DNA from: Solirubrobacterales bacterium
Lineage (GTDB): Bacteria; Actinomycetota; Thermoleophilia; Solirubrobacterales; 70-9
DNA length: 64,000 nucleotides
Assembly: GCA_035472275.1 (NCBI GenBank)
Contig: DATIPH010000031.1
Coordinates: 14,983-78,982 of the forward strand
Reading direction: 5' to 3'
In this document: positions 4,065 to 17,648 of the stretch, piece by piece
Layout of the letters: every line of letters starts with the position of its first letter
How positions within the stretch are numbered: the first letter of the stretch is position 1
Position numbers and translations under genes: made by a program
Notes under the pieces: generated by a model
What the model was told of the DNA's origin: nothing
The model's database searches: none
The model's input: only the letters and a program-made list of their open reading frames with translations

Positions 4065-4137
4065 CTTCGCGGCGCTAGAGCTTTTAAGGCGACACGATTG
4101 ATGGCGCATCGCCTTTGTTCATGCGGAAAGCCGGTTG

Positions 4138-4168
4138 CTGTGCGCCAGTCCGTGCGCCAGTCGCCCCG
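4138..4168 (+). repeat. Copy 1 of tandem-motif box CTGTGCGCCAGTCCGTGCGCCAGTCGCCCCG
   Basis: Internal 12-nt-spaced duplication of GTGCGCCAG. A near-identical box lies at 7552-7583. Confidence 0.7.
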
Positions 4169-4219
4169 CCCGGATTCCAAACGCCCTCCCGACCGGGCGC
4201 GTCCATCTGCTTGCCTAGC

Positions 4220-4600
4220 ATGAGGACAACGGAAGCTCTCAAGCTTTCCCGAAAGGCCAAGATGGACGTAACTGGAACCATCGGCACTGCCTGGCGACAT
4301 AACGAGCTCGTTGGCGAGTTCGTGTTGCGTGGCGGCCGGGAGGCAGGAGCGGGAGGCCGGGTTGCGGAGCACGTCGAAATTCTGTTCCCTAGCTTCCTCG
4401 CCGTTGCGATTCGGCCCGAGCTAGAAAAGATTGTGAAAAAGGAACGCCTCCCAGAGGCTCTGATCCTCGACCTGGAGCTTGCCGATGGGAGAAAAATAAG
4501 CGGCTGTGAGGTTGCTGGATTCTGGGGGGGAGAACTCGGGGAGCGCTGGTTCGGAATTGACCTCGACCTCGATGAACTCGCCCGGGAATCTTTGGGCTAG
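4220..4600 (+). CDS. Hypothetical protein (126 aa)
   Basis: Inner ATG of track ORF 4115..4600. No recognisable motif. First ORF of the island. Confidence 0.3.
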   Translation: MRTTEALKLSRKAKMDVTGTIGTAWRHNELVGEFVLRGGREAGAGGRVAEHVEILFPSFLAVAIRPELEKIVKKERLPEALILDLELADGRKISGCEVAGFWGGELGERWFGIDLDLDELARESLG

Positions 4601-4985
4601 CCCCTCAAACCTCTCCCCCGCCAGACTCAGGGCGGGAAGCGCTCCAAGTTAAGAGCCGTCCAGTTTCCCAATCGTGCCGCCCTCTCCCTCTAGCGCCTCG
4701 ATGACACCTTCGCGCGCCGTCGCCAGACGGCTCAGGTTGTAGTGGCTGAGAGATGCACCGCTTACGGCGGAGTTGAGATCTCCCTTTGCGTAGCCGTGCC
4801 AACCTCGCGGACCAAGGCCTTGTCTGCATACCCCGTTTGCTAGCGCGGCGATTCCACCCCGTCTACCAACGTACTTAGGTACTTATGCGCATCGGAATAT
4901 TTGCGAAACAACTGCTTTCAAATGCGACGGCGAGGAAGTGTGGACGGGAGGCCAAGGGCCGCTTGGCCTCGAACTGCGAGAGCCG

Positions 4986-5213
4986 CTAGCTCGCCGCTTC
5001 GCTGCGCGCGACGGCGGCGAGAAGACCGTTGCCGATGCACTCTTCGCGGGCGATTCGCTCCTCGTGCGTGGCGCCGAAAAACAAGCGATCGGCATCCGGC
5101 TGGGGGACCCTTGGCCTGTGGTCTCGAAGCGCTTTCGCCCTACGCAGGAATTCGTCGGCGACCTCTTTGACTCGAGATCTCTCGCTCGAAGAGAGGCAAT
5201 TCTCGGACCTCAT
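4986..5213 (-). CDS. Hypothetical small protein (75 aa) downstream of the methylase
   Basis: Track ORF on the same strand as the methylase operon. No motif recognised; competing ORFs exist in other frames. Confidence 0.25.
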   Translation of the reverse strand: MRSENCLSSSERSRVKEVADEFLRRAKALRDHRPRVPQPDADRLFFGATHEERIAREECIGNGLLAAVARSEAAS

Positions 5214-5264
5214 ACGAACAGCGTACGCCTGCTGTCAGTCGAGATAGCGCTCAAGCGATCGGCG

Positions 5265-6146
5265 TCAAACAGGAGCTACGAAAGCGGCGCCAGCATCGCC
5301 CAGGCCTTCGAGCGTAGAGACCTGTAGCGCTGGCGCGAAGACCGCAAACTCGCGACCGACATGCTGGACGGCCGCGCTGTGAGAAAGGCTGAACTCGGCA
5401 CAGCGGAGCCCCGCGTAAAGATCCTCTGTGACCCGCGGATCGGCGTCGTAGGTAAGAAACCAGCGGCCGCCTTGGCGAAGCAAGGTCGAGAGTCGGACGT
5501 GGTCTTCCCAGTCGAGCGTGTCTAGGTAAAGGTGATCGCCTTTCCCGAGATATGGCGGGTCGGCATAGATGAAGGAATCCGCCTCGCGGACGAACCTTGA
5601 AATGAGGTCAATGCCGTCAACTTCCTCTACCGAGACTCGGCTCTGGTACTGAGCAAGGGCGCGGATACGTTGCGTCAGGCGATCCTTGTCGAAGCGGGCG
5701 TCAATTTTCCACCGGCCGCTCTGGTCGTACCCTCCGATGGGCCGCGCGTCGAGAATCCCGGAACGATTGGTCCGGTTCAGAAAGAACAGAGCGAACCCGA
5801 GCGCTACGTCGTCGTCGGGGCGAGCCAGATAGACCTCGCGCTGCCGATGCCATTCCGCCACGTTGACCTCGCAGTCGCTAAGGCATTCGAGCAGCTCATC
5901 GGGTGATTCGAAGACCGCTCGCCAGAACGCGGCGATTCCGGGGTTCAAGTCATTGATGACGATTTCGTCCACGTACTCATTCACGAGCAGCCGAAGACCA
6001 ACTCCAGCACCGCCCGCAAACGGCTCGATATAGATCGAGGGCCGTGGATTCTGCTGATCGAGCAGGGCTCCAATGAAGGCCGCGAGTCTTCCCTTTCCAC
6101 CCGGATATCGAAGTGGGCTCAGGTATCGCGCCGGGACCCTAGGCAT
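5265..6146 (-). CDS. D12-class N6-adenine DNA methyltransferase (Dam-like)
   Basis: LRYPGGKGRL near the N-terminus, AdoMet motif EPFAGGAGVG, catalytic DPPY (FIYADPPYLGKG). Confidence 0.85.
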   Translation of the reverse strand: MPRVPARYLSPLRYPGGKGRLAAFIGALLDQQNPRPSIYIEPFAGGAGVGLRLLVNEYVDEIVINDLNPGIAAFWRAVFESPDELLECLSDCEVNVAEWHRQREVYLARPDDDVALGFALFFLNRTNRSGILDARPIGGYDQSGRWKIDARFDKDRLTQRIRALAQYQSRVSVEEVDGIDLISRFVREADSFIYADPPYLGKGDHLYLDTLDWEDHVRLSTLLRQGGRWFLTYDADPRVTEDLYAGLRCAEFSLSHSAAVQHVGREFAVFAPALQVSTLEGLGDAGAAFVAPV

Positions 6147-7428
6147 TGTCGTTCAGCGCTTGGAGGAACGGCTCAAGGTTCGCGGCGATCGAGCGAATAC
6201 CTGAGCCGTCGGGATGGAAGTGGGGATTGTGGACGAACCCGTGCAGCGTGGCGACCGCGAACATGCTCGTGCCGTCAGAAAGACCCTGGCGAACCCCCTG
6301 GAACCGTTCGTCCTTCTGAGAGGGATCGACGGCATAGAGCGCGCGCTGAATTCGTTTTTTCAGTTTCCCATCGGTGGCGAGGCCCTTTTTGGCGATGAAC
6401 TGATCTATCGAAAGTTCCAAGATCGCACGGGTCAACAGGGCTGCCGCATTGGGAAGTTGGTCCACATCGACGCTCCGGAACTCCCCCAGGATTAGGTCCG
6501 TGCGTCCCCCGAGTTGGCTCAGGTCAAGACCGGCGAAGGGCCGCGGCGGTTTTTTCGGCCGCTTCGGTTTCTGCGGTTTGGGTTTCGGTTTCGCCTGGTT
6601 GGAGGCGTCCAGGGGTTTTGCAGTTGCTCGGCGCTTGTTCGGGTCGGGTTCTGGCGTCTGTTCTAGGTATTTCTTTCGGTCGGGCTTTTTCCGAATTTCG
6701 CTAACACCGATTTCAGAAGCGAAATCTCCAAGGACGTGCTCCACGAAGGCCTCAAGCTCTTTGGCCGAAAACTGGAAGGACAGGGAGCCGTTGACATCTT
6801 CCATCCCGATTCGCTTGCGGAACTCTTGATCGAGGACAAGGCGGCCAAGGGTCGTGAGGCGTTTGTTGGCGACCTCGGCCACGAGCGTCTGGATCACGTT
6901 GTTCTTTGGGTAGGCCTTCGAGATCTCTTCCAGGAATCGGATAGCCGCCCCAGCCTCACGGCCGGGCTTGGCGAAGCGGTTCGCCGCCATGGCGTTCCAG
7001 GGAACAACGCCCGCACCCTGCGCCTCACCACCATGCCGCAGAACCATCCAGTGTTTTGCCTCTTTGCGGGAAGGGACGATGGCGCAATCAGCCTCGGTTG
7101 GCAGAGGCCCTTTCGCTGCCAGGCGCCGCATCTGTTTCTCGATCGGGGTCCCGTCAGCCAAGCTCGGATTGCTGAGGATCTTCACGACCGCGATCCGTCG
7201 ATTGCCCTCGACAACGGTGTAGTTCCGCCCAGCCTTGATAACCAGAAGTCGATCTATTGGGCTCAGGCTGTTTTTCAGAATGTCCGCAGCGAGAACTGCG
7301 AGCTTCTGTCGCTCGCTCGCGATGAGCGCCGCGATCGCATCTTTTTGAGATGGAACTTTTCCGTGGCGGGGATTTTCCGTATCGAGGAGCAGCTTTCCGA
7401 CCGGGATCGTCTTCATTTCAATGGCCAT
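6139..7428 (-). CDS. ParB/sulfiredoxin-fold N-terminal domain protein with KP-rich linker and unassigned C-terminal domain (429 aa)
   Basis: IPVGKLLLDTENPRH and VVEGNRRIAVVKIL are ParB-N motifs; the linker is KPKPKPQKPKRPKKPPRP. Start taken at ATG 7428 (MAIEMK), since the 134-codon upstream extension of the track ORF looks non-coding. The stop overlaps the methylase ATG by 8 nt. Confidence 0.75.
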   Translation of the reverse strand: MAIEMKTIPVGKLLLDTENPRHGKVPSQKDAIAALIASERQKLAVLAADILKNSLSPIDRLLVIKAGRNYTVVEGNRRIAVVKILSNPSLADGTPIEKQMRRLAAKGPLPTEADCAIVPSRKEAKHWMVLRHGGEAQGAGVVPWNAMAANRFAKPGREAGAAIRFLEEISKAYPKNNVIQTLVAEVANKRLTTLGRLVLDQEFRKRIGMEDVNGSLSFQFSAKELEAFVEHVLGDFASEIGVSEIRKKPDRKKYLEQTPEPDPNKRRATAKPLDASNQAKPKPKPQKPKRPKKPPRPFAGLDLSQLGGRTDLILGEFRSVDVDQLPNAAALLTRAILELSIDQFIAKKGLATDGKLKKRIQRALYAVDPSQKDERFQGVRQGLSDGTSMFAVATLHGFVHNPHFHPDGSGIRSIAANLEPFLQALNDNA

Positions 7429-7436
7429 GGCGCGGC

Positions 7437-7466
7437 AGTATCTCCGGTTACACAGATTTGCGTCAA
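7437..7466 (-). promoter_or_regulatory. Possible promoter of the ParB-like/methylase operon (TTGACG, 18 nt, GATACT)
   Basis: Hexamers read on the minus strand. The -10 element ends 8 nt before the ATG, implying a very short or absent leader. Confidence 0.3.
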
Positions 7467-7551
7467 CATCGTCCAGTGATCGGGAAGCTTCATGTCGGTT
7501 TTTAATTCGCCCTGCAGACCTCAGCGCGCGACCCCGCGAACGGCACCCGCT

Positions 7552-7583
7552 CTGTGCGCCAGTTTGTGCGCCAGCCGGCCCCG
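7552..7583 (+). repeat. Copy 2 of tandem-motif box CTGTGCGCCAGTTTGTGCGCCAGCCGGCCCCG
   Basis: Matches 4138-4168 at 21 of the 23 core positions. Lies about 125 nt upstream of the ParB-like start, next to the hairpin CCGGAAACAGCCGGTTTCC. Confidence 0.7.
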
Positions 7584-7893
7584 GAAACAGCCGGTTTCCA
7601 CCGGCCGCAACCGGGCGAAGCAACGCAGCGTTTTGGCCTGGGCAGCACGGCGCAAACCCAATGCTGATGCCGTAGAACGCCGCAAACCCAGTTGTGGAGC
7701 GGAAGTCCTGGGACAAGACTCGAAACACGATCCAGTGGTGGCCCGAATTCGTGAACTCCACGCTCAACGCTACAAATCCGGCTACGGAGCCGACTGATTC
7801 AGTATGCGTGAGGCGGCTCGAACGCGTCAAGGGGGCCGGCTTTCCCAGCGATGGGCTATCGGAATCGCAGCCGTTCTTTTCTAGGGCGTGAAC

Positions 7894-8301
7894 CTAGAAG
7901 TGCTGCCCGAGAATGAAGCCAACGACCGAGACGACTACACCGCTGCCAATCTGAATCACCCAGGGATGATTCATGATCTGCTTCCAGTGGGACTCATCCT
8001 CGGTTGGCAGCTCGACTTGCGATTCTTGGATCGAGTCACTGATGGCTTTTAGTTCAGGCGGCCCAAGGTGAACCGCTGGGGCAGGAAGCCGGGGCTCGAT
8101 TCGAGGCCCTGGCTTGATCGGTTCTATGTCGATGAACGTACTTGCTTGATTTGCTTCTGCAAGAAGCGATTTGTAGGCAGATGATTCGAGCAGCTTTGCT
8201 CGGATCGACTGCAACGCCAATTCGACTTCCGGCGTCTTGGCCAGCTTGCTTGCGAAGTCCGGCGCTCTTTGGGTCAGCTGCTGAAATAACTCCGAATCCA
8301 T
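7894..8301 (-). CDS. Hypothetical tail-anchored membrane protein (135 aa)
   Basis: Single C-terminal hydrophobic helix WVIQIGSGVVVSVVGFILG. No other motif. Confidence 0.55.
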   Translation of the reverse strand: MDSELFQQLTQRAPDFASKLAKTPEVELALQSIRAKLLESSAYKSLLAEANQASTFIDIEPIKPGPRIEPRLPAPAVHLGPPELKAISDSIQESQVELPTEDESHWKQIMNHPWVIQIGSGVVVSVVGFILGQHF

Positions 8302-8395
8302 GCGGACAAAATCGCAGTCGGATCAGACGGATACTGCGAACGGACCTTCCGGGCGCAGGGCCTAGACCAGCAATAGGAGCAGATCAGCTCGGTGC

Positions 8396-8623
8396 TCATT
8401 TCCCCGACTCCAAAAGGCTCAGCGGCTCCACATCCAGCTTGCCCGCGATCTTCTCGACGTTCTTCAGCGTCAGGTTGCGCTCACCGCGCTCCAGGCCACC
8501 GACATAGGTGCGGTGGAGGCCGAGAGCGGTTGCAAAGTCGGCCTGGCTGAGGCCGCGAGCTTGGCGGTAGGTCCGCAGGTTCTGCCCGACGATGCGTTGG
8601 AGGTCGCCTTCCATTGGGAGCAA
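8396..8623 (-). CDS. XRE-family helix-turn-helix regulator (75 aa)
   Basis: LRTYRQARGLSQADFATALGLHRTYVGGLERGERNLTL is a classic Cro/C1 HTH. Confidence 0.85.
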   Translation of the reverse strand: MLPMEGDLQRIVGQNLRTYRQARGLSQADFATALGLHRTYVGGLERGERNLTLKNVEKIAGKLDVEPLSLLESGK

Positions 8624-8691
8624 TCAAACATGGAAGGGCTGACGAACGCCATACCCAATGAGGCAATTCGCGCTTTGGGACTGCCCCCGCG

Positions 8692-9534
8692 CTAGGGCTC
8701 GGACTGCTCGGCGGGCCGTGCCGGCGGTCCCGGCTGGCCCGGAACCTCCCGGCGCTCCCGTTCAAGTTCAGCTATCTCGTCGTCCGTGAGACCAGGGGAC
8801 AGCGCCTCTTCTTCAGCGCGTACTTCTCTCATTTTTTCATCACGGGCTATGTCTTTTCTCACTAGCTGCTCCCGGAGTTTCACCAGATCCGGGTCAGCGG
8901 CAGCCTTGCGCCCAATAGCGGTCCGATAGAGGCTCGCCTCTTCAGACCTACTGAGGCGCTGGTTGGTGTTCTCGGTGAGACTGGTCAGCCGCTCAAGGCG
9001 ATCCACGATCAGACCAAGGGTCCGCTCCTCAACATTGCCTCCTTGCAACTGGGCCAAACGCATTCCGTCTGAGATCGGGTTGTCGGCTGGATTGGTCAGC
9101 GATGCGCCGAGTTGCGTCTCCAGTTCTTGGCGGGCTACGTTGGCGCTGGCCAAGTCGTTGTGCTTGAAGAAGATGACTCGGGACTGGCCAAGATCAAAGG
9201 GCAGCTTGGTGTCTTCCTCGGCAATCAGGACGACCGGCAGCAGCGCGCCGTGGCGTACTGACAGCTCGTAGTAGACGTTGGGGTTGCCGCCGGTCAGGTC
9301 TGCTACAGCCGCTTTCGCTTCCAGGCAATGCTGGACGGCCTGAGAGGTGATCTGACCAGGCTCACCAACATCATCGGCGCGGAGGGTCTCGAGCCCGTGG
9401 GCCTCCGCGGCCGGTTTGACTATCCAGTCCCGTACGTCGTTCGAGCGCTTGCGGACATCAGTGCCTTGCTCGCCGATCGGCGCAATGAAGAAGCACTCCT
9501 GCTCAAAGTCAGCGGCCATTCCGTTGGCGACCAT
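8692..9534 (-). CDS. Rossmannoid NDT/TIR-like domain protein with charged coiled-coil tail (280 aa)
   Basis: CFFIAPIG strand, then ADLTGGNPNVYYELSVRHGALLPVVLI. This resembles the nucleoside 2-deoxyribosyltransferase/TIR-like core with a conserved Glu. The C-terminal 100 aa are rich in E/R/K. Confidence 0.6.
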   Translation of the reverse strand: MVANGMAADFEQECFFIAPIGEQGTDVRKRSNDVRDWIVKPAAEAHGLETLRADDVGEPGQITSQAVQHCLEAKAAVADLTGGNPNVYYELSVRHGALLPVVLIAEEDTKLPFDLGQSRVIFFKHNDLASANVARQELETQLGASLTNPADNPISDGMRLAQLQGGNVEERTLGLIVDRLERLTSLTENTNQRLSRSEEASLYRTAIGRKAAADPDLVKLREQLVRKDIARDEKMREVRAEEEALSPGLTDDEIAELERERREVPGQPGPPARPAEQSEP

Positions 9535-9573
9535 ATCCGCTGAGGGCGGGACTGCTCATCTCAGGTTTTTGGG

Positions 9574-10191
9574 TCAGCCGCCCGGCGATTCAAAGCCCAG
9601 CAGCGAGATAGTGGCTCGAATGGTCTTGGGATCTTTGGCTTTGGCCAGGCGGGAAGCACTCTCGCCCTGAATCTCCAGCACCTGATCGAGCGCGCCGCTC
9701 AGTAGCGTCATGGCGTCCTCCCAGCCTTGGTCGTCGAGGTTGAGCGGCGTGCAACTCAGGTGGCGGTCGTCGCGGGAATCGAAGGTCTCGTTCTCCAAGG
9801 CAGCCTTGGAGGCGTCATTGATCATCTGAAGACCGGCAACCGAGACGCCATTCTTGGCGTCGTCGGAGAGGGACGCCCAGTTCTCCGCGTTGAGAAAGGA
9901 GCGGGTGACGCCGCGAAAGAAGTGCTCCATTGCCCCCCGGCGCTGCTCGGCTTTGACCAGTTCGACGCAGCCCAGTTCTTCCAGCACACCGACGTGGTAG
10001 CTGACGTTGCCGAGTGGCTCGTCAAGCTCAAGATGAAGTTCCTTGGGGGAGGCCACTCGTTCGTTGAGGATCGCCAGGGCGCGGGCACGCAGGGGGTGTC
10101 CGACGGCCTTGGCCAGGCGGCTGTTGAAGCCGGCATATAGCTCGGATGACGGCTGGTCGCTGCTCTTGGCTCGGTCCTTCTTGGGGGGCAC
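9574..10191 (-). CDS. ArsR-like winged-helix protein with extra C-terminal domain (205 aa)
   Basis: AKAVGHPLRARALAILNERVASPKELHLELDEPLGNVSYHVGVLEELGCVELV is an ArsR/SmtB-type wHTH. Confidence 0.75.
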   Translation of the reverse strand: MPPKKDRAKSSDQPSSELYAGFNSRLAKAVGHPLRARALAILNERVASPKELHLELDEPLGNVSYHVGVLEELGCVELVKAEQRRGAMEHFFRGVTRSFLNAENWASLSDDAKNGVSVAGLQMINDASKAALENETFDSRDDRHLSCTPLNLDDQGWEDAMTLLSGALDQVLEIQGESASRLAKAKDPKTIRATISLLGFESPGG

Positions 10192-10523
10192 GGGGATACA
10201 GCTCCTTCAATAGTCGAGGGAACGATGAGCAATCGACTGTATTCGTGCAACCGGCTTGTGTCCAACTGCAAACGGCCCGAGTTTCTTCACTAGTGGAGGT
10301 CTCTCTACTATTGCCGCTTGGGCTGGGTTCTTAGCGCTCTAGCGAGCGCCTGGCGCTCAGCCGCGCCCTTTCGAGAGCGAAAGGGGGTGACAAAAGTGGC
10401 TATCAAGATCACGGAGCGCGTTGTTCCGGTCCTCGTCACGAAGCTCGGCTAGAGCCGGCAACAGCAGTAGCGGATGGTCTGCCCCAGTCTGGGCGGAGCA
10501 TCCGTCTCTCCGATCGGCGGCGC

Positions 10524-10877
10524 TCAGGACTTCGACGGGCGGTCCTCGATCGCCGCCTTGACCTCGCGGACCTCGCGATCGAGTTGGTCAAGACGAGCGA
10601 GCACCTGCTTCTCGAACGAAGCGCCGCCGCTGACTCGTCCGGCGGCCTGGAGCAGTTCGGTGGCGTCGACCTTGAGGGCGGCGGCCACCCGTTCGATGAT
10701 CTCGTCGGAAGGCGGGCCTTGCTTGCCTAGCTCCAGCCGGGAGAGGTTGGAGGGGCTCATCGGGATGCGCTCAGCCAGCTCGGCCAGGGTGTCGCCGCGC
10801 TTGCGCCGAAGGCGGCGCACCAGGACGCCGAGGGTCTCGGCGCGCTGAGTCTCTTTCTGTCCCTTGGGGCTGGCCAT
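10524..10877 (-). CDS. XRE-family HTH regulator with C-terminal coiled coil (117 aa)
   Basis: LRRKRGDTLAELAERIPMSPSNLSRLELGKQ is an HTH motif. Confidence 0.8.
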   Translation of the reverse strand: MASPKGQKETQRAETLGVLVRRLRRKRGDTLAELAERIPMSPSNLSRLELGKQGPPSDEIIERVAAALKVDATELLQAAGRVSGGASFEKQVLARLDQLDREVREVKAAIEDRPSKS

Positions 10878-11051
10878 GCTCCGCCAATCCCCTGACTACC
10901 GGCTAATAGTGGAAAACCCTAACCTATTCCCGCAAGTCGGGCTATGGCCCGGAATGCGGTAACGTCCGCACCGTGCCTGGCCGGGCTCCACAAAGTCACC
11001 CCCTCGGCCAGGCCACCACTTCAGGCGGGCAGCGACAGAAGGGCGGGAGCA

Positions 11052-11651
11052 ATGCGTGGCAGAGCGTGGCGGCGGTATGCAGTCCTAGCGGTGATCACCG
11101 GCTTGGCGGCGTGGGCGACGGTGCCGGCGACGAGCGTCACCGCAGCGCCGCCTCTCGAGCAAGCCTGCGTCAAGGCCGGACTGGTGCCGCCCGTGGTCAA
11201 AGAAGCCGTCATGGAACACCCCGGCAGCAAACGCGGCCGATTGCAGTCTGTCTCCACCAGCATTGAAGTCCCGGCGATGCCGGAAGAATGCTGGGGCATC
11301 TACCAGCGGCTGAGCGCCGCTGTCACCCAGATTCAAGACCCGCTGCACCACGCCCGCTGGTACAACACCAGCGGCTGTCGCTTCACGGCCAAGGAATGCG
11401 TCGGCATCAGCAAGCCGAACTGGTGGCAGTTGTCCTGGGCCAAGGACGAAGGCGGAATCGCCGGGCTTTACTCGCCGCCGACCGGCCATGAGGGAAAGTT
11501 CCTCTACTACGCCTGCACGCCCGGCAAGGGAGTCACCCACGTCCGGCTGCTGCTGAGGCGCACGATCAGGAGCGTCAGCACGCACCAAGTGATTGGGCGC
11601 AGCCGGATCAATGTCCGCCCAGTGGAAGTGCGAGGGAGGAAGCCATGCTGA
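11052..11651 (+). CDS. Secreted Cys-containing hypothetical protein, paralog A
   Basis: Signal peptide RRYAVLAVITGLAAWATVPATSVTA. Shares CV(K/E)AGL, P(E)xC and QIQ landmarks with the next gene. GGGAG Shine-Dalgarno before ATG 11052. Confidence 0.6.
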   Translation: MRGRAWRRYAVLAVITGLAAWATVPATSVTAAPPLEQACVKAGLVPPVVKEAVMEHPGSKRGRLQSVSTSIEVPAMPEECWGIYQRLSAAVTQIQDPLHHARWYNTSGCRFTAKECVGISKPNWWQLSWAKDEGGIAGLYSPPTGHEGKFLYYACTPGKGVTHVRLLLRRTIRSVSTHQVIGRSRINVRPVEVRGRKPC

Positions 11652-12286
11652 GGCGGGGATACCCCGCCCTGGTGATCATCGCGGGGCTGTTGGCCGGGCT
11701 GACGGTGTCGATGACGGCACCGTCAGCCAGAGCGGAAGACGAACTCGGGCAGACCTGTGTCGAAGCTGGCTTGGCTCGGCCGGGAGCGCTGCACGCCATT
11801 GAAATGCACCGTGCCGGTTTGCGACCGGGCACGCCTGGTCACTACCACTCGCAGGGGGTCTCCGGGGTCTTGCTGTTCGGGGCACTGCCGGAAGGCTGCG
11901 TGCCGTCAGTGGTTCGGACGGCGACGGCGCAGATTCAGATGTGGCGGGGGCGCTGGGTGAATGTCGGAGCAAGGCACGGCAACATGGAAGCCCCCGGCAA
12001 CAGCGAACGAGCTACCAAGCTCTTTGCTGGCCCGACCCATGCGTGGCCAAGCTACGTCTTCAATGAATGTGGAGCTGGTGGGAAGTGGCTGAAAGTCCGA
12101 GCAGTCGTCGGGCTCCAGGTCAAGGACAGCAGCAGCCATGCAGTGCTGGGAGCTCAGCGCTACGTGTGGCCGGTGCAGGTGCATGGAAGCTGCCGGTTGG
12201 CACGGATCAGCAAGAAGCAGACGGCCAGCTACAAAGAAGAATGGGGCCAAGGGAGTGGGAGGGTGCGAGTCGATTCTCCGGGTTGA
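11645..12286 (+). CDS. Secreted Cys-containing hypothetical protein, paralog B
   Basis: Signal peptide ALVIIAGLLAGLTVSMTAPSARA. GAGGGAGGA Shine-Dalgarno. Overlaps paralog A by 7 nt. Confidence 0.6.
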   Translation: MLRRGYPALVIIAGLLAGLTVSMTAPSARAEDELGQTCVEAGLARPGALHAIEMHRAGLRPGTPGHYHSQGVSGVLLFGALPEGCVPSVVRTATAQIQMWRGRWVNVGARHGNMEAPGNSERATKLFAGPTHAWPSYVFNECGAGGKWLKVRAVVGLQVKDSSSHAVLGAQRYVWPVQVHGSCRLARISKKQTASYKEEWGQGSGRVRVDSPG

Positions 12287-12520
12287 TCGCGCGGTTTCGG
12301 GTTGAACTGAGGGCGAAACGAGCCAAGGGCGTCCGGAGGCATAGACACACTGCTGTCCTGTGAGCCCCCTCTCACTTGGCTTGAGCACTAGCCGAGTCGG
12401 CAGCTTCGTCTTGGTAGCCTGCCGCGATTCGTGCGACCCCCTGCCTAGATCTGTGTTGATTCCAGGTATGCACAGACAAAACCTTGTATTTACACAAGAG
12501 TTCTCGCATACTTAAAATAA

Positions 12521-12907
12521 ATGGAGAAATTTCCTGCCAATACCGCTAGCGTTCCCGCATCTCAGGAGTCTGCGCTGCGGTCGTTCTTTGTCCGCCTGCT
12601 GGGACCCCTTGTACGGCAACCTCAGCGGGAGGACGACAAAGCAGTGAGCAACGGCGAAGGTGAACAGGCAGCATCGACGGGCATCACGCTTGAAGATGTC
12701 CAAGCAGAGTTGAACAGAGTGGACGAGGAGCGTCGGAATCGGACGCCCGACTGGATGCCTCAGCCCTTGGAGCTTGGACCACAGCGCTACCCCGACCCCA
12801 GGCTCTGGGGTCCGGAGAATGGGACCGAGGACGAGAGCTACCGAGACTCTCTGAAGCTCCTTCCCAATTTTGAGCCTGCTCACGTGTCGGCCAAGCGCAA
12901 CCGCTAG
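12521..12907 (+). CDS. Hypothetical acidic protein (128 aa)
   Basis: Track ORF, first gene of the A/T-rich cassette, preceded by an A/T-rich promoter-like stretch. Confidence 0.45.
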   Translation: MEKFPANTASVPASQESALRSFFVRLLGPLVRQPQREDDKAVSNGEGEQAASTGITLEDVQAELNRVDEERRNRTPDWMPQPLELGPQRYPDPRLWGPENGTEDESYRDSLKLLPNFEPAHVSAKRNR

Positions 12908-12932
12908 CTCTCCCTCCTTCATCGCTAGCTCT

Positions 12933-14777
12933 ATGAGTTGGGTGGACGCGCTTCGGCGCCTGATGGGTTGGTCTGATCCTGTAGCTGAGTTCAACTTCGA
13001 TATCACCGTGGATCGTGTCGGCTGCCTCGCAGATTTGATCACCCGGCCAACCCGCTATGTACAGCGGCTGGCCGAGCAGCTGTCGTTTGTGCCGACGGGT
13101 GGGCAGCAGTGGGTGCGCACCCTTCAGATTCAGATCCCAGAAACGAGTGGCTCGAAGCAGCCTGACTGGTGGATCATCCCCCTCGGACAGTTCAGTCGCA
13201 AACGCTTTGCCGACTTGGTGGCGCGCGACGCACATGGTCAGCGCCTCAATCTGCTTACGCGAAACCAGCACGGGGACGCTCTCACCGATGTGTTGACCAC
13301 GAACTATGCCTCACAGCTTGATCCTGCCTCGCGGGCGCTGCTGCCTGAGGAACAGCCGAGAGAAGCAGCGCTGCTCCTGCGATCACTCCTCTTTGAGTAC
13401 CTAACGAATCTCGATGTGCCGCCCGACGACGATGACTGGACGCCGGGAGCTAGCAAGCCCGTGCATCAGGTCTCTCAACAATACAAGTCTCTCTTGCTAG
13501 CCCTCAAACTGTCCGACTCCGACAGCGACGCTCGCGCCCAGCAGTTCTTCAAAGAAGTTGCGGAGCAGACCCGGACCGCTCCCTATCTCTGCTGGGTCAA
13601 AGCATCACCCGGCGAGGTAATCAGCGTGCAGGTGACCTACTCCTCAACGGATCCGAAGCATAGCCTCGCACTCGGCAGCTTGTGGGATCTGTTCTTGTCG
13701 ATACTCAAAGGTCTGGTTCCGCTATGGGGTAAAGCCCGGTCGATACGTGCTCGCTGGTTTCGGCAGTATGGACTTGCGCCAATTGACTACGCCTTCGATA
13801 TTCCAAATCAGGCGAGTACTGGCAGCTACTACCTGAGGCTGCAACCTCCAGACAACACCATTTGCTCGTATCTCGATTGGGCGGTTGATGATTCGTTCAA
13901 TGAGGAGAAGGAAGCAGACGGCGCGTTTCCTTCGGCACACATTCACAACAACGACCCAACTCATCCCGAAACCGGCACCCCAGCCGATAAAGGCGATAGG
14001 GCAAGCGAGGCTATCCGCGCCTATCTGCGCTGTGCGCCCCATCACCACAAGCAGATTCTTGGCGCAACGATGCTCAATGTGGTGGTCGTGTGGCTCCTTG
14101 CAAAGGGAGAGCTTCCAATCGGATTTGGAGAGCCATTGCAAGCCCTCATCGCTGCGGCTCCGTCAATTCTCATCGCGTTTCTCGCGCAGCAGCAACGTCA
14201 CTACTACTCACAGGTGATGCGACGGCAACGGGCGATCCTGTGGACCTACTTGTTTATCAGCGTGTCGTTCCTTGTCAGTGTGGCTTTTAGCGCGCAGAGT
14301 CACTCGACGCATGAGAGTGGATTGCCGTGGCTGGCCAACATTGCTGCGTGGGTACTGGCGATCAGCAGTACCGGAGTCTTCTTCTGGCACTTGCCACTAG
14401 GAGGTAGCTATGAACGGGTCATCAAATATCTCACTGATCGCAAGTGGGAAGTCGCTCAGCCTTCGCAAGAGAGCCTAGGACCTGTACGTGCCTTTGGATT
14501 CGACGTGCGGAAGCAGTGGTGGAAGTGGTGGAACGTCAATTTCACGACGAAATGGGAATGCTACGCGGACGCAGTGCGGCAGTACTGCTGCATAATTTGC
14601 ATTCTTGTCGTTGCGTCTATGGGTGGCGCTGCGTTTCTGCTCAGTGAATTTGCGGACTTTTCGCTGAAGCCACAGCCACGCCCCCCTAGCGGGCGCCCAG
14701 TGTTCACCAATGGGCAGGCACCGACGTCGTTGCCGCGTCCAGACACCGAGCGAATAGACTTAAGCCCAACGTGGTGA
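12933..14777 (+). CDS. Large hypothetical membrane protein (614 aa): about 400-aa soluble N-domain plus 4-5 C-terminal TM helices
   Basis: Long ORF in an A/T-rich region, where spurious long ORFs are unlikely. Hydrophobic helices include LGATMLNVVVVWLLA, IAAAPSILIAFLA, ILWTYLFISVSFLVSVAF, IAAWVLAISSTGVFFW and IICILVVASMGGAAFLL. ATG 12933 preferred. Confidence 0.7.
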   Translation: MSWVDALRRLMGWSDPVAEFNFDITVDRVGCLADLITRPTRYVQRLAEQLSFVPTGGQQWVRTLQIQIPETSGSKQPDWWIIPLGQFSRKRFADLVARDAHGQRLNLLTRNQHGDALTDVLTTNYASQLDPASRALLPEEQPREAALLLRSLLFEYLTNLDVPPDDDDWTPGASKPVHQVSQQYKSLLLALKLSDSDSDARAQQFFKEVAEQTRTAPYLCWVKASPGEVISVQVTYSSTDPKHSLALGSLWDLFLSILKGLVPLWGKARSIRARWFRQYGLAPIDYAFDIPNQASTGSYYLRLQPPDNTICSYLDWAVDDSFNEEKEADGAFPSAHIHNNDPTHPETGTPADKGDRASEAIRAYLRCAPHHHKQILGATMLNVVVVWLLAKGELPIGFGEPLQALIAAAPSILIAFLAQQQRHYYSQVMRRQRAILWTYLFISVSFLVSVAFSAQSHSTHESGLPWLANIAAWVLAISSTGVFFWHLPLGGSYERVIKYLTDRKWEVAQPSQESLGPVRAFGFDVRKQWWKWWNVNFTTKWECYADAVRQYCCIICILVVASMGGAAFLLSEFADFSLKPQPRPPSGRPVFTNGQAPTSLPRPDTERIDLSPTW

Positions 14778-14784
14778 TCGTCGA

Positions 14785-15654
14785 CTAGCTGATCCCAACC
14801 CTCTCCCCAAACCCCTGACGGTCCCACTCGCCAACTTGGGCCAAAATAAAGCGCAGCTCTCTTGCTTGCTCTTTGGTTAGGTCGCCGGTCCAGCCGGCTA
14901 GACGAATGAGCGAGTCAGAGTTGTATGTGGCGGTACCGTGGAGAATCGCTTTGCCGTATTGCTCCATGTAGGCGCTTAGCGTGGTGAGTAGCCGAGCCAG
15001 ATACCACAGAGCGCCCACCGATGCATCAGCGTGCTCATGGGCCTTCTCGGGGTCACCTCGGCTGGCTTCCCGGGCAATCACTTCTGCTCGCAACCCGTAG
15101 ACATCACTCCAAATGCGAGAGAGCAAAACCTCATGGTCGGCAGTATCTGAATGAGCAATCTGTTCCTCGGCGATGACCGGCGTGTGACCTGACGCTTCAA
15201 ATGGCTCGCCGTCCTGGGCTCGCCGCACATACTGCAAGCTGTCCTGATGCAGTAGCCAAGCCACTTCTCCGAGTATCTGTGGCTCGATCCGCTTGCGGAA
15301 GTGATGTAGCTCGTAATCGAGGAGGTTGGCGGCATGGCGACGACGCTCAGTCAGCGTCCGGCCACCGCGGGCAACCACGAATAGTCCAGTCGCCGCTTCG
15401 CGGCGCTGCTTCGGCACTATCGCTTTCAGCGTTCCCTTCAACAGGCGTTCTAGTGCATCGACGCGGGCAAGCCGGTCACCTGACCGAACACTGCGGGCGA
15501 TCACCCCATTGAGTTGCAGCAGATCATCGGGCACCTGATCCGGTCGCAGGGGGATCCCCGTGCGCAACACGGTCTTGAGTGCCTCAACAGTGCCTCCCAG
15601 TTCGGCTCCCTCGGGTGGCTGAGACGGTGGTTTCTTGCGCTTCGGGCTACCCAT
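14785..15654 (-). CDS. Hypothetical protein (289 aa), convergent with the membrane protein gene
   Basis: Track ORF. ATG 15654 (MGSPKRKKPP) preferred. No family recognised. Confidence 0.55.
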   Translation of the reverse strand: MGSPKRKKPPSQPPEGAELGGTVEALKTVLRTGIPLRPDQVPDDLLQLNGVIARSVRSGDRLARVDALERLLKGTLKAIVPKQRREAATGLFVVARGGRTLTERRRHAANLLDYELHHFRKRIEPQILGEVAWLLHQDSLQYVRRAQDGEPFEASGHTPVIAEEQIAHSDTADHEVLLSRIWSDVYGLRAEVIAREASRGDPEKAHEHADASVGALWYLARLLTTLSAYMEQYGKAILHGTATYNSDSLIRLAGWTGDLTKEQARELRFILAQVGEWDRQGFGERVGIS

Positions 15655-15656
15655 CC

Positions 15657-15697
15657 ATGCCCAGCATATGCCCACATTGGGAACTTTTAGATGCCCA
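15657..15697. promoter_or_regulatory. Divergent promoter region with three direct ATGCCCA boxes
   Basis: ATGCCCA at 15657, 15668 and 15691, so the spacings are 11 and 23 nt. Lies between divergent starts at 15654 (-) and 15722 (+). Confidence 0.4.
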
Positions 15698-15721
15698 GTA
15701 ACAACCCGGAGGGTCGGAGCC

Positions 15722-15994
15722 ATGACCCCACCACGCATTTGTCCCCCACCGCCGACCGCCCCCGACTGCGGTCTCTTCGACCAGCGCCTCAGCTACGTCC
15801 CGGATGAGCCGCTGCGCCGGGCCGTTCTCATGGACCGGCGCAAGTCCCGCGACCTGGCCGCCTTCGTGTGGGCCGACTTCAACCGTGACCGCCGCCCGGT
15901 GGCTGAGCCAAAGGCTCCCACCCCCACGGTGCCACCGCTTCCCAGGCCGGCGCTGCCCTCCACTTCGATGATCGAGAAAGGAGTTCTGCGATGA
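15722..15994 (+). CDS. Hypothetical Pro-rich protein (90 aa)
   Basis: Inner ATG of the track ORF. First gene of a tightly packed plus-strand operon. Confidence 0.45.
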   Translation: MTPPRICPPPPTAPDCGLFDQRLSYVPDEPLRRAVLMDRRKSRDLAAFVWADFNRDRRPVAEPKAPTPTVPPLPRPALPSTSMIEKGVLR

Positions 15995-16308
15995 ATGAAC
16001 TGCCAGCCCGGCTCGACGGGCTGCGGCCCTCCCGTCAACTGACGCGGGCGACTGCTGCCCAGGAACGAACTGAGTTGGCCGTCTTCGAGCACCATCTTGC
16101 CGCCCGCTATCTCGCAGAGATCGACCGCATCGACTCGACTGCGATCGCAGATGTTGCTGAAGCTGCCCTCGGGGAGGAGATGCGGGTTCTCGACTGGGGC
16201 CTGAGTGAAGCCGGTGACAGCGTTACCAAAGCTGAGTTGGTCTCGCGCAAGGTCAGCTTGCAATCGCGGATCAACAACGCCCGGATCGCCCGGCGCTTCG
16301 GGGGGTGA
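15991..16308 (+). CDS. Hypothetical protein (105 aa)
   Basis: 4-nt overlaps with both neighbours suggest an operon. Confidence 0.5.
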   Translation: MNELPARLDGLRPSRQLTRATAAQERTELAVFEHHLAARYLAEIDRIDSTAIADVAEAALGEEMRVLDWGLSEAGDSVTKAELVSRKVSLQSRINNARIARRFGG

Positions 16309-16577
16309 AGGCGATGTTCGAGCTACTACTGACGATCGTCGCCGGCTCCGGAGCAGGCGCACTCTGTGGCGGCCTGCTGGCCGCCTGGCTGTTGCGGCGT
16401 CACCACCGGACTGAGGACGGTCAGCCCGACGCGTTGGACCCTTGGGTATCGGCCGAAATCGACCGGGCGGCTGTGGAGTTCGCCAACCGCAATGGGCGGC
16501 CGGAGACCGCCCCGCTCATTGCCGACAAGCTCCACCTGTTGCATCACCTGGGCCAGCGTCAAGGAGGCTCAGAATGA
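16305..16577 (+). CDS. Small membrane protein (90 aa)
   Basis: N-terminal TM helix LLLTIVAGSGAGALCGGLLAAWLL. Confidence 0.5.
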   Translation: MKAMFELLLTIVAGSGAGALCGGLLAAWLLRRHHRTEDGQPDALDPWVSAEIDRAAVEFANRNGRPETAPLIADKLHLLHHLGQRQGGSE

Positions 16578-16813
16578 TCTGGGTACTGCTCTTGCTGGCG
16601 GTGGCCTTCGTCGTCTTCCTGGCGTGGCGGAACGGTCAGTCACCGCCACAGCAACGAGACCCAGAAGCCGAACTGAAAGCGGCCCTGGAGTTGCACGCCA
16701 TCCGGCGTCGGCTGGAAGCAGCCGAGCTAAAGCATCAACAGCGCCAGGACGCTGCCCGGCTCAGGCGGGACATTCAGGAGTCCCTGGACGAGTCCGACGG
16801 TCGTGTCTCCTAG
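16574..16813 (+). CDS. Small membrane protein (79 aa)
   Basis: AAGGAGG Shine-Dalgarno 7 nt before ATG 16574. TM helix IWVLLLLAVAFVVFLAW. Confidence 0.6.
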   Translation: MIWVLLLLAVAFVVFLAWRNGQSPPQQRDPEAELKAALELHAIRRRLEAAELKHQQRQDAARLRRDIQESLDESDGRVS

Positions 16814-17318: not shown

Positions 17319-17485
17319 AAGGGCTGGGCTCGACGGCGCTGGTGGCAATGCTCCTGCTGCTTGCCCTAGCGGCGGCCACGCCGTCGCTCATCGCCCTCAG
17401 TGGCGCCCTACTGCCGCTAGTGGTCGTGTTGGCCGTGGCGATCGTCCTGGTTCGCCTGGTCCTTTTCCACACCCGGAATTGGTGA
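17315..17485 (+). CDS. Small two-helix membrane protein (56 aa)
   Basis: GTG overlaps the methylase stop. The sequence is almost entirely hydrophobic (LVAMLLLLALAAA, LLPLVVVLAVAIVLVRLVLF). Confidence 0.45.
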   Translation: MKGLGSTALVAMLLLLALAAATPSLIALSGALLPLVVVLAVAIVLVRLVLFHTRNW

Positions 17486-17648
17486 GGCACAGCGTGATTG
17501 CCCTGCTGTCAATTCCACGCCTTGACCCTCCAACTGAAGGCATCGGACAATGGAAGGTTCGCGTTGGCACCTGGGTTGGTTCCTCACTCCCTCATCCCCG
17601 AAGACGTGGGCGAATGGCAGCACAAGAAACGGGAGAGGAGGTTCCACG

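What the first reader, a model, noticed from the sequence alone, without database searches (positions are those of the whole stretch)
5265..7428. Translationally coupled ParB-fold protein + D12 adenine methylase: candidate non-canonical restriction-modification-like module
The two minus-strand genes overlap by 8 nt (ATGCCTAG, 6139-6146). The downstream gene is a Dam-like D12 methylase (RYPGGK, FAGGAGV, DPPY). The upstream 429-aa protein has a ParB/sulfiredoxin-type N-domain (LLLDTENPRH, VVEGNRRIAVVKIL), a KPKPKPQKPKRPKKPPRP linker and a ~130-aa C-domain I cannot assign. No PD-(D/E)xK, HNH or other classical restriction nuclease is adjacent. ParB-fold domains are known to act as nucleases or NTP-gated DNA clamps, and they occur in DNA-modification systems (for example DndB-type proteins). 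My inference is that the ParB-like protein is the DNA-targeting partner of the methylase in a self/non-self module. The alternative is a partition or regulatory protein of the island.
Basis: partly seen in the sequence, partly recalled or inferred. Interest (0 to 1): 0.72.

Follow-up and report, generated by a model that had tools for sequence, protein, structure and literature searches.

The report
PD-lambda-5 phage-defence gene pair

Summary
Two minus-strand genes, A (429 aa, 6139-7428) and B (293 aa, 5265-6146), overlap by the 8 nt ATGCCTAG, and every quoted motif is present.

Both proteins match the PADLOC profiles of one known defence system over their full length: PD-Lambda-5_A (E=7e-103) and PD-Lambda-5_B (E=1.2e-99). 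Vassallo et al. 2022 found this system in E. coli ECOR7, annotated it 'ParB/HEPN, methyltransferase', and reported broad phage protection.

A has three parts:
- a ParB/sulfiredoxin N-domain with invariant NPR and GNRR boxes;
- a helical middle region, followed by a disordered Lys/Pro linker;
It is a HEPN-like helical bundle (fold hits weak but consistent; recurrent weak DUF4145 hits) that lacks the canonical Rx4-6H motif.

The pair is strongly conserved. B is adjacent to A in 76 of 78 genome loci across bacteria and archaea, and in 36 of 36 phage or prophage contigs with enough sequence.

In this window the pair is cargo on an 18.6-kb low-GC integrative element beside tRNA-Asn. That element is 100% identical in another dataset, where its right flank differs.

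Verdict: a new actinobacterial member of a known system. No mechanism has been shown, here or in the papers I could search.

The parts
6139..7428 (-). Gene A: PD-lambda-5 component A, 429 aa, ParB-fold plus HEPN-like protein
   Evidence: PADLOC PD-Lambda-5_A PDLC04007, E=7e-103, residues 5-427 on profile positions 3-447 of 454; all listed hits are PD-Lambda-5_A models. No Pfam or NCBIfam hit above threshold. phrog_9592, 7.2e-59. AlphaFold2 model mean pLDDT 87.4.
7075..7428 (-). ParB/sulfiredoxin (ParB-CTPase fold) N-domain, about aa 1-118. Box I LDTENPRH is at 7363-7392 and box II EGNRR lies within 7174-7215.
   Evidence: Foldseek top hits are ParB and Noc bound to CDP/CTPgammaS (7bnk, E=1.8e-3, prob 1.00) and sulfiredoxin 6ky4 (TMt 0.60). 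A family profile aligns GNRRlaa with GERRLRA of H. pylori ParB 4umk. N19, R21, G75, N76, R77 and R78 are invariant in 47 sequences of 26-55% identity.
6649..7074 (-). Helical middle region, about aa 119-260, with the invariant motif LRH(132)xGExxG(138)xGxxxW(144) and R196
   Evidence: Secondary structure. Invariant columns. Foldseek alignments to ParB/Noc extend over 230-280 columns but at 12-14 A rmsd, so equivalence to the ParB DNA-binding domain is not established.
6538..6591 (-). Lys/Pro-rich disordered linker KPKPKPQKPKRPKKPPRP (aa 280-297)
   Evidence: pLDDT below 50 for residues 280-290. Composition is conserved but length and sequence vary across homologues.
6142..6522 (-). C-terminal HEPN-like helical bundle, about aa 303-429. 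Conserved R334, E338, R380 and T-L-H396-x-x-V-H400-N401; no Rx4-6H motif.
   Evidence: Domain-only model pLDDT 93.9. Most of the better Foldseek PDB hits are HEPN proteins (2hsb TM 0.56/0.59, 4nqf, 1o3u, 1wol, Csm6, sacsin HEPN), but all have E>=1.7. 10 of 35 family members hit Pfam DUF4145 weakly, best 0.0048, on the first long helix. The reference protein is annotated ParB/HEPN and gave a low-probability HHpred hit to DUF4145 (35.6%) on the same helix.
5265..6146 (-). Gene B: PD-lambda-5 component B, D12-class N6-adenine DNA methyltransferase, 293 aa. Motif I FAGGAGV is at 6000-6020 and motif IV DPPY at 5550-5561.
   Evidence: PADLOC PD-Lambda-5_B PDLC04018, E=1.2e-99, residues 7-279 on profile 3-278 of 291. 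Pfam PF02086, 5.4e-17. TIGR00571 dam, 7.9e-15, below its cutoff. Motif positions.
6139..6146 (-). 8-nt overlap ATGCCTAG (B start codon, A stop codon), implying translational coupling
   Evidence: Read directly from the sequence. The same 8-nt overlap occurs in relatives L085 and L086. Overlap or a gap of at most 2 nt occurs in the close clade L001-L004, L006, L007 and L037; more distant relatives have gaps of 20-130 nt.
7437..7466 (-). Promoter-like TTGACG-18 nt-GATACT ending 9 nt before A's ATG; a probable leaderless transcript
   Evidence: Consensus scan. GATACTGCCGC is invariant in six loci whose A proteins are 58-80% identical to the window's and whose flanks are unrelated. The leaderless reading is an inference.
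7553..7619 (-). Conserved upstream element of 66 nt (7554-7619) containing the tandem repeat CTGGCGCACA x2 (7553-7574); function unknown
   Evidence: 80% identical to L085 9861-9925, whereas other DNA homology is limited to A and B. Repeat found.
4139..4160 (-). Second copy of the tandem CTGGCGCAC repeat, 73 nt from the tRNA-Asn 3' end
   Evidence: Same orientation as the copy at 7553-7574.
4066..22617 (.). The 18.6-kb integrative element that carries the pair as cargo. Its landmarks are tRNA-Asn (3992-4065) at the left, an FtsK/TraG-like ATPase (17801-19816), Replic_Relax (19680-20753), a large serine recombinase (20806-22647) and a 29-nt antisense tRNA 3' fragment (22589-22617) at the right.
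   Evidence: GC is 0.58-0.66 inside the element and 0.70-0.72 in the flanks. tRNAs. Pfam hits. Logan contig SRR9656168_189030 is 100% identical to 4039-22617 and then diverges.

Best explanation
The locus is an actinobacterial-type member of the PD-lambda-5 anti-phage system, carried as cargo on an integrative, probably conjugative or mobilisable, element inserted beside tRNA-Asn.

Shown here:
- Both genes are full-length family members.
- The pair is a conserved two-gene unit across bacteria, archaea and phages.
- B keeps the SAM-binding (FxGxG) and catalytic (DPPY) motifs of D12 N6-adenine methylases.
- A has a ParB-CTPase-fold N-domain whose box I (NPR) and box II (GNRR) residues are invariant, a helical middle region, a disordered basic linker and a HEPN-like C-domain.

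Shown by others, for the E. coli homologue only: the pair protects against a broad phage panel, and it was cloned in a host lacking the mrr region. I take the mrr deletion to mean that the methylase is active in vivo.

Inferred mechanism:
- B marks host and element DNA with m6A at a still unknown motif.
- A is the effector that acts when that mark is missing. The ParB-like domain would act as an NTP-gated DNA-binding or nicking module, and the HEPN-like domain as a second, possibly RNA-directed, nuclease or as the oligomerisation and regulatory part.
- In this clade A appears to be made from a leaderless mRNA, and B's start codon overlaps A's stop codon. Translation of the methylase may therefore be tied to translation of the potentially toxic effector.
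For: - Membership: PADLOC A E=7e-103 and B E=1.2e-99, both full length.
- Reference system: annotated 'ParB/HEPN, methyltransferase', broad protection, delta-mrr host, 'RM+Abi' reading (PMC9519451).
- Pair conservation in genomes: 76 of 78 loci with room have B next to A, 73 of them co-oriented directly downstream.
- Pair conservation in viral contigs: 36 of 36 with room.
- Cassette behaviour: DNA homology to relatives covers only A, B and a 66-nt upstream piece.
- ParB fold and boxes.
- HEPN-like fold.
- Methylase motifs.
- Mobile-element context.
- Family size: 5,937 cluster representatives at E<=1e-3.
- Modification-linked variants of A: a Dnd/Pbe phosphorothioate locus and a P2-like phage with a C5 methylase.
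Against: - No biochemical mechanism for PD-lambda-5 is reported in the papers I could search (19 papers, mostly genome surveys).
- The HEPN assignment is statistically weak (Foldseek E>=1.7, Pfam E>=0.005), and the defining Rx4-6H motif is absent.
- No recognised DNase active site was found in A.
- The window's proteins are only about 24-31% (A) and 35-42% (B) identical to proteobacterial members. I could not retrieve the validated ECOR7 proteins, so activity in this host is extrapolated.
- One full-length A homologue (L045) has no D12 methylase nearby.
Confidence: 0.8

Rival explanations
1. The pair mainly works as an addiction (post-segregational killing) module. It stabilises the 18.6-kb element in the way selfish type II RM systems do, and phage defence is a side effect.
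For: It sits on a recently mobile element that is 100% identical in a second dataset with a different right flank. The cassette recurs next to integrases on unrelated elements. Coupled expression of the effector and the protective methylase fits this reading.
Against: The E. coli homologue was recovered in a selection for phage resistance and protects broadly. Addiction and defence are not mutually exclusive.
Confidence: 0.25
2. This is an abortive-infection system. A's HEPN-like domain is an RNase triggered by infection and kills or arrests the cell. The methylase does something other than mark self DNA, for example it regulates or neutralises A.
For: The C-domain is HEPN-like. HEPN domains are usually RNases in Abi, toxin-antitoxin and CRISPR systems (10.1101/2024.10.26.620412). 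The discoverers read the system as 'RM+Abi'.
Against: The canonical Rx4-6H catalytic motif is missing. The near-obligate link to a DNA-modification enzyme points to DNA-mark discrimination. I could not read the Abi versus direct-immunity classification of PD-lambda-5 because it is in a figure.
Confidence: 0.15
3. The pair helps the element evade host restriction or sets an epigenetic mark. B protects the element's DNA from restriction, as phage and plasmid orphan methylases and ParB-methylase fusions are thought to do. A is a DNA-loading or regulatory accessory with no restriction activity.
For: ParB-fold domains fused to DNA methylases are enriched in prophages and have been suggested to serve anti-defence roles (PMC12704722). 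The element carries a second, orphan-type Dam methylase (PF05869).
Against: The homologous E. coli pair confers defence on the cell. A carries an extra effector-like domain. B-type methylases also pair with other effector-like partners, such as an AAA ATPase in E. coli H1.
Confidence: 0.08
4. A is a ParB-type partition or transcriptional regulator of the island.
For: A has the ParB fold. Conserved tandem CTGGCGCACA repeats lie upstream of A, with a second copy at the island edge.
Against: No ParA was found in the island ORFs scanned. Only 2 of 35 family members gave a weak ParB_N hit, and none hit a ParB HTH or C-terminal dimerisation model. The element is integrated in the chromosome. The repeats are direct rather than palindromic, and they are absent from relatives L001, L007 and L037. 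The strict pairing with a methylase across phyla is not explained.
Confidence: 0.03

Closest known systems
PD-lambda-5 of E. coli ECOR7 (RCQ13837.1 and RCQ13838.1; Vassallo et al. 2022, PMC9519451)
   Same: Two co-oriented genes. A has a ParB-like N-domain and a HEPN/DUF4145-like C-region, and B is a D12 adenine methylase. Both window proteins match the PADLOC profiles for this system over their full length. The system is carried on a mobile element.
   Different: This A is shorter (429 aa). The ECOR7 A is about 500 aa, estimated from its HHpred coordinates. The carrier here is an actinobacterial integrative element with a serine recombinase, not a P2-like prophage. The genes overlap by 8 nt and A appears to have a leaderless promoter. 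Sequence identity to proteobacterial members is only about 24-31% (A) and 35-42% (B). Activity has not been tested here.
GmrSD / SspE type (ParB-like DUF262 NTPase fused to a DUF1524 HNH nuclease)
   Same: A ParB-superfamily NTPase-like N-domain is joined to a C-terminal effector domain in a system that discriminates DNA by its modification state. This is the closest analogy for how A could work (background from PMC12839542, and general knowledge).
   Different: The signature is EGNRR rather than DGQQR or DGQHR, and there is no Pfam DUF262 or DndB hit. The effector is HEPN-like, not HNH. GmrSD-type enzymes attack modified DNA and need no methylase, whereas here a methylase is an obligate partner.
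Classical type II restriction-modification
   Same: An adjacent, co-expressed DNA methylase and a putative effector, with a presumed self mark made by m6A.
   Different: No PD-(D/E)xK, HNH, GIY-YIG or PLD endonuclease is present. The partner is a ParB-fold plus HEPN-like protein.
DndB and the Dnd/Pbe phosphorothioate systems
   Same: A ParB-superfamily protein is embedded in a DNA-modification locus. One PD-lambda-5_A homologue (L045) sits at the end of a pbe-like operon next to dndA, dndE, dndD, dndC and dndB.
   Different: A is not DndB: L045 has its own DndB, the motif differs, and A has an extra C-domain. The window pairs A with an m6A methylase, not with phosphorothioation.
Phage ParB-methyltransferase fusions and the P2 hotspot trio (ParB-N protein, hypothetical protein, C5 methylase)
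   Same: A ParB-fold domain is genetically tied to a DNA methylase on a mobile element. The N-domain of phage vB_EcoM-12474III gp04 is 31% identical to A over 152 aa.
   Different: Those are single-polypeptide fusions, or use a different methylase class (PF01555 or PF00145), and they lack the HEPN-like C-domain of A.

Membership tests
PD-lambda-5 (PADLOC / DefenseFinder definition) | Component A matches a PD-Lambda-5_A profile over its full length | tested here: met
   PDLC04007, E=7e-103, 343 bits, residues 5-427 on profile positions 3-447 of 454. All 25 listed hits (of 26) are PD-Lambda-5_A models.
PD-lambda-5 (PADLOC / DefenseFinder definition) | Component B matches a PD-Lambda-5_B profile (D12 methylase) | tested here: met
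   PDLC04018, E=1.2e-99, residues 7-279 on profile 3-278 of 291. PF02086, 5.4e-17.
PD-lambda-5 (PADLOC / DefenseFinder definition) | A and B are adjacent genes of one operon | tested here: met
   Same strand with an 8-nt overlap. The same arrangement occurs in 73 of 78 genome loci.
PD-lambda-5 (reference system) | A has the ParB-like N-domain plus HEPN-like C-domain architecture | tested here: inconclusive
   The ParB fold is supported. The HEPN-like fold is suggested by consistent but non-significant hits. The reference annotation itself rests on low-probability HHpred hits.
PD-lambda-5 (reference system) | Confers resistance to phage infection | not testable with these tools
   Shown only for the ECOR7 system expressed in E. 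coli MG1655 delta-mrr.
D12-class N6-adenine DNA methyltransferase | SAM-binding motif I (FxGxG) and catalytic motif IV (DPPY) are intact | tested here: met
   FAGGAGV at aa 43-49 and DPPY at aa 196-199. Enzymatic activity and target motif cannot be tested here.
Classical type II restriction-modification | A recognised restriction endonuclease fold (PD-(D/E)xK, HNH, GIY-YIG or PLD) in the partner or a neighbouring gene | tested here: not met
   No such hit in A or in the flanking ORFs scanned with Pfam, NCBIfam, PADLOC and PHROGs.
ParABS partition system | A neighbouring ParA ATPase, a ParB HTH and C-terminal dimerisation domain, and a palindromic parS site | tested here: not met
   No ParA among the island ORFs scanned. 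No ParB HTH or dimerisation-domain hit. Only short direct repeats were found, not a palindrome, and they are absent in several relatives.
Canonical catalytic HEPN RNases | Rx4-6H motif at the start of the last core helix | tested here: not met
   The conserved motif is T-L-H396-x-x-V-H400-N401. The invariant R334 lies 66 residues upstream of H400. Whether they come together in 3-D could not be measured.
DndB / DUF262 (GmrSD, SspE) branch of the ParB superfamily | DGQHR or DGQQR motif and a match to PF14072 or PF03235 | tested here: not met
   The signature is EGNRR. No PF14072 or PF03235 hit in the window protein or in 35 family members at E<=1.

The most novel reading that the evidence does not exclude
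The PD-lambda-5 A protein may be a portable reader and effector of DNA-modification state. Its ParB-fold domain would be an NTP-gated module with a family-specific EGNRR box, and it would license a non-canonical HEPN-like domain that uses R334, E338 and H400 in place of Rx4-6H. It could be plugged onto different modification modules: a D12 m6A methylase as here, a Dnd/Pbe phosphorothioation locus as in L045, and possibly C5 methylases in P2-like phages. That would make it a restriction-enzyme class with no classical nuclease fold.
Probability: 0.25. Interest if true: 0.65.

Novelty: new member of a known kind. Interest (0 to 1): 0.3.

Why it matters
For genome annotation, two genes that Pfam and NCBIfam leave as 'hypothetical protein' and 'DNA adenine methylase' can be named as a validated defence system. 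The surrounding 18.6 kb can be described as a mobile element carrying defence cargo.

For biology, the mechanism of PD-lambda-5 is still unknown. The family-wide invariant residues give concrete mutagenesis targets: N19, R21, G75-R78, H132, G138, W144, R196, R334 and H400. The absence of Rx4-6H, the coupled expression design and the rare Dnd/Pbe-linked homologue are further leads.

None of this makes the locus surprising to a specialist. The system is widespread (about 5,900 clusters at 50% identity) and has already been reported in Actinobacteria.

Tried and rejected
- Direct Pfam and NCBIfam scans of A gave only noise (Frankia_peptide, MraZ). The identification came from PADLOC.
- Profile searches against PDB sequences gave only a marginal ParB hit for the full protein (4umk, E=0.006) and nothing meaningful for the C-domain.
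- I tried to reach the validated E. coli ECOR7 genes through DNA similarity, using a Vibrio homologue as query. Only the methylase part matched, and it led to a different pairing, an AAA ATPase with a B-like methylase. No direct alignment to RCQ13837.1 or RCQ13838.1 was possible.
- A search for long att-type direct repeats flanking the island found none. That is expected for a serine recombinase.
- Exact-sequence look-ups of three island proteins failed, probably because the gene callers chose other start codons. Look-ups of A and of the Dam-like gene worked.
- Correlation of A and B divergence across 72 loci gave Pearson 0.78 but Spearman only 0.26. The signal is driven by the close clade, so I do not use it as evidence of co-evolution.
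- I considered and rejected the partition or ParB-regulator reading, membership of DndB/DUF262, and classical type II RM (see the membership table).
- The discoverers' Abi versus direct-immunity classification of PD-lambda-5 is only in a figure and could not be read.
Full report
OBSERVATION

B runs 5265-6146 (293 aa). A ends at 6139 and encodes 429 aa from the ATG at 7428. B's ATG (6146-6144) lies inside the last codons of A, and A's TAG is at 6141-6139, so the 8-nt overlap ATGCCTAG is real. All quoted peptide motifs are present at the positions given.

The mechanical ORF of A reaches a TTG at 7830. The 7428 start is the supported one for two reasons. Thirty-four homologues begin within a few residues of it. 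A conserved promoter-like element also ends 9 nt upstream of it.

WHAT IT IS

Pfam and NCBIfam recognise B as a D12/Dam-type adenine methylase (PF02086, 5.4e-17) and give nothing for A.

The PADLOC defence library identifies both proteins. A matches PD-Lambda-5_A (PDLC04007, E=7e-103, residues 5-427 on profile positions 3-447 of 454), and every listed hit is a model of that component. B matches PD-Lambda-5_B (PDLC04018, E=1.2e-99, full length).

PD-lambda-5 was found by functional selection in E. coli ECOR7 (Vassallo et al. 2022, PMC9519451). From that paper:
- It is listed as 'ParB/HEPN, methyltransferase'.
- It was cloned in MG1655 lacking the mrr region.

The 19 papers in the searchable library that mention it are mostly genome surveys, and I found no mechanistic study. 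One survey already reports the system in Actinobacteria, mostly on prophages. Another reports it in Pseudomonas genomic-island hotspots.

ANATOMY OF A

An AlphaFold2 model built on 35 homologues is confident (mean pLDDT 87.4). It shows an alpha/beta N-domain, a helical middle region, a disordered stretch at residues 280-290 (the Lys/Pro linker) and a helical C-domain.

N-domain.
- Foldseek places it with ParB and Noc CTP-binding structures (7bnk, E=1.8e-3, probability 1.00) and with sulfiredoxin.
- A family profile aligns GNRRlaa of A with GERRLRA of H. pylori ParB.
- In 47 sequences of 26-55% identity, the invariant residues are N19 and R21 (box I, NPR), G75-N76-R77-R78 (box II), H132, G138, W144, R196, R334 and H400.
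- From general knowledge of ParB CTPases, the box II arginines contact the nucleotide phosphates. Their invariance suggests that A binds a nucleotide.
- The family signature EGNRR differs from GERR (ParB), DGQHR (DndB) and DGQQR (GmrSD). No member hits the DndB or DUF262 Pfam models.

- It was modelled alone with pLDDT 93.9.
- Most of its better PDB matches are HEPN proteins: 2hsb (TM 0.56/0.59), 4nqf, 1o3u, 1wol, Csm6 and sacsin HEPN. None is statistically significant (E>=1.7).
- Ten of 35 family members give weak hits to Pfam DUF4145, a family placed in the HEPN clan according to my own knowledge. The hits fall on the first long helix. A low-probability HHpred hit (35.6%) falls on the same helix in the reference protein.
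- The canonical Rx4-6H motif is absent. The conserved constellation is R334/E338 on one helix and T-L-H396-x-x-V-H400-N401 on another.
- I therefore call the domain HEPN-like and non-canonical, with moderate confidence.

CONSERVATION OF THE PAIR

- Eighty genome loci encode A homologues of 24-60% identity, from Actinomycetota, Bacteroidota, Pseudomonadota, Acidobacteriota, Chloroflexota, archaea and others. Seventy-eight have sequence downstream of A.
- Seventy-six of those 78 have a B homologue next to A. It is co-oriented and directly downstream in 73 and convergent in 3.
- In IMG/VR viral contigs, all 36 loci with a full-length A match and enough room have B adjacent.
- The family is large: 5,937 representatives of 50%-identity clusters at E<=1e-3.
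- DNA-level homology between the window and its 80%-identical relatives covers only A, B and a 66-nt upstream piece. The pair therefore moves as a cassette between unrelated elements, often next to integrase genes.

The exceptions are informative.
- L045 (Bdellovibrionales) has a clear PD-Lambda-5_A protein (E=1.3e-120) and no D12 methylase. It is the last gene of a pbeA-pbeC operon beside dndA, dndE, dndD, dndC and dndB.
- P2-like coliphages carry a protein with an A-like N-domain, then a hypothetical protein and a C5 methylase.
- E. coli H1 pairs a B-like methylase with an AAA ATPase.
- These cases suggest that effector and modification modules can be exchanged. They are single examples, so this is only a lead.

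CONTEXT IN THE WINDOW

- recO, an HD-domain phosphohydrolase gene (dGTPase-like) and dnaG (223-3947) are followed by tRNA-Asn (3992-4065).
- From there to about 22.6 kb, GC falls from 0.70-0.72 to 0.58-0.66.
- That stretch encodes A and B, HTH proteins, a TIR-like protein, a Dam-like orphan methylase, an FtsK/TraG-like ATPase, a Replic_Relax protein and a large serine recombinase.
- An 18,621-bp contig from another dataset (Logan SRR9656168) is 100% identical to 4039-22617 and then continues into different DNA, which reads as a tRNA-Ser-like gene (my reading of 42 nt; ARAGORN was not run on it). This delimits a recently mobile 18.6-kb element.
- No phage structural genes were recognised. I read the element as integrative and conjugative or mobilisable, not as a prophage.

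HOW IT MOST LIKELY WORKS

Shown here: family membership, the domain folds, intact methylase motifs, obligate pairing and mobile-element carriage.

Shown by others, for the E. coli homologue only: phage defence. The need for an mrr-deleted host is something I read as evidence of in vivo methylation.

Inferred:
- B marks resident DNA with m6A, and A acts on DNA that lacks the mark.
- The ParB-like domain would be an NTP-gated DNA-binding or nicking module. This is by analogy with the NTPase and nickase activities reported for other ParB/Srx proteins and with the GmrSD/SspE design (background).
- The HEPN-like domain would be a second nuclease or a regulatory and oligomerisation part.

Expression design. 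In this clade the promoter's -10 element (GATACT) ends 9 nt before A's ATG and is invariant across six loci, which points to a leaderless mRNA. B has no Shine-Dalgarno sequence (my reading of the sequence) and starts within A's last codons. B translation is therefore probably coupled to A translation, which would be a sensible safeguard if A is toxic without methylation.

Confidence: about 0.95 for membership, about 0.8 for a defence or addiction function, and about 0.5-0.6 for the specific methylation-gated effector model.

RIVALS

- Addiction module for the element. This is compatible with the main model and is not excluded.
- Abortive infection through a HEPN RNase. It is weakened by the missing Rx4-6H motif and by the near-obligate link to a DNA-modifying enzyme.
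- Anti-restriction or epigenetic role, with A as an accessory. It is contradicted by the defence phenotype of the homologue.
- Partition or regulatory ParB. There is no ParA, no ParB HTH or dimerisation domain and no palindromic parS; the element is integrated; and the methylase pairing would be left unexplained.

NOVELTY AND SCORE

The object is nevertheless a catalogued and widespread system, so I file it as a new member of a known kind.

What remains of interest is the unsolved mechanism and the leads listed above: the invariant residues, the non-canonical HEPN-like domain, the coupled expression and the Dnd/Pbe-linked homologue. Interest is 0.3.

Noticed in passing
window 4039-22617 (junctions near 4066 and at 22617/22618): An 18,621-bp Logan contig (SRR9656168_189030) is 100% identical to this stretch over 18,579 bp. 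It then diverges: the contig continues into what reads as a complete tRNA-Ser(TGA)-like gene on the minus strand, while the window continues into a high-GC core gene. The window keeps only a 29-nt antisense tRNA 3' end at 22589-22617. The serine recombinase ORF (20806-22647) reads across this junction. The element is bounded by tRNA 3' halves of two different tRNAs in inverted orientation, which I cannot fully explain.
   Followed up: partly
window 7437-7466 (-), and loci L084, L085, L001, L037, L007: A promoter-like TTGACG-18 nt-GATACT ends 9 nt before A's ATG. GATACTGCCGC is invariant in six loci with otherwise unrelated flanks. This suggests a leaderless mRNA for A and an unexplained conserved CTGCCGC after the -10 element.
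   Followed up: partly
window 7553-7574 and 4139-4160 (both on the - strand); L085 9861-9925: The tandem direct repeat CTGGCGCACA (12-nt period) occurs twice in the island. One copy is about 125-145 nt upstream of A, inside a 66-nt element that is 80% identical to the same position in L085. The other copy is 73 nt from the tRNA-Asn 3' end. Together they bracket the A-B cassette and a few small ORFs. They could be an operator or recombinase arm-type sites. Relatives L001, L007 and L037 lack them.
   Followed up: partly
window 8692-9534 (-), with 9574-10191 (-) and about 8396-8614 (-): A 280-aa protein has a weak TIR-effector hit in PADLOC (1.6e-7) and strong hits to phage families of unknown function (phrog_3634, 4.8e-35). 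It is flanked by an ArsR/HTH_20-type regulator and an Xre-type HTH gene. It may be a second defence gene upstream of A on the same strand.
   Followed up: partly
window 16803-17318 (+): A second adenine methylase on the same element. It is phage-type Dam (PF05869, 3.4e-12) and matches the PADLOC 'orphan methyltransferase' model, with no partner gene.
   Followed up: no
L045 925-13250 (MAG Bdellovibrionales OZ253553.1): A bona fide PD-Lambda-5_A homologue (E=1.3e-120) has no D12 methylase nearby. It is the last gene of a PbeA-PbeC operon, facing dndA, dndE, dndD, dndC and dndB. This may be a swap of the modification module from m6A to phosphorothioate. It is a single case.
   Followed up: partly
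L081 3001-6037 (Escherichia phage vB_EcoM-12474III) and L083 2845-5557 (E. coli H1): Two variant pairings. The P2-like phage hotspot next to the portal gene has a ParB-N protein (31% identical to A's N-domain), a 330-aa hypothetical protein and a C5 cytosine methylase. E. coli H1 has an AAA_15/AAA_21 ATPase followed by a methylase 38% identical to B, next to an integrase gene.
   Followed up: partly
L082 4406-5245 (-) (Pseudomonas phage OQ658368.1) and L084 11283-12140 (+): B-like methylase coding sequences are detectable by tblastn (39% and 79% identity to B) but are not annotated or called as genes in the source records. Annotation-based counts would miss these PD-lambda-5 pairs.
   Followed up: no
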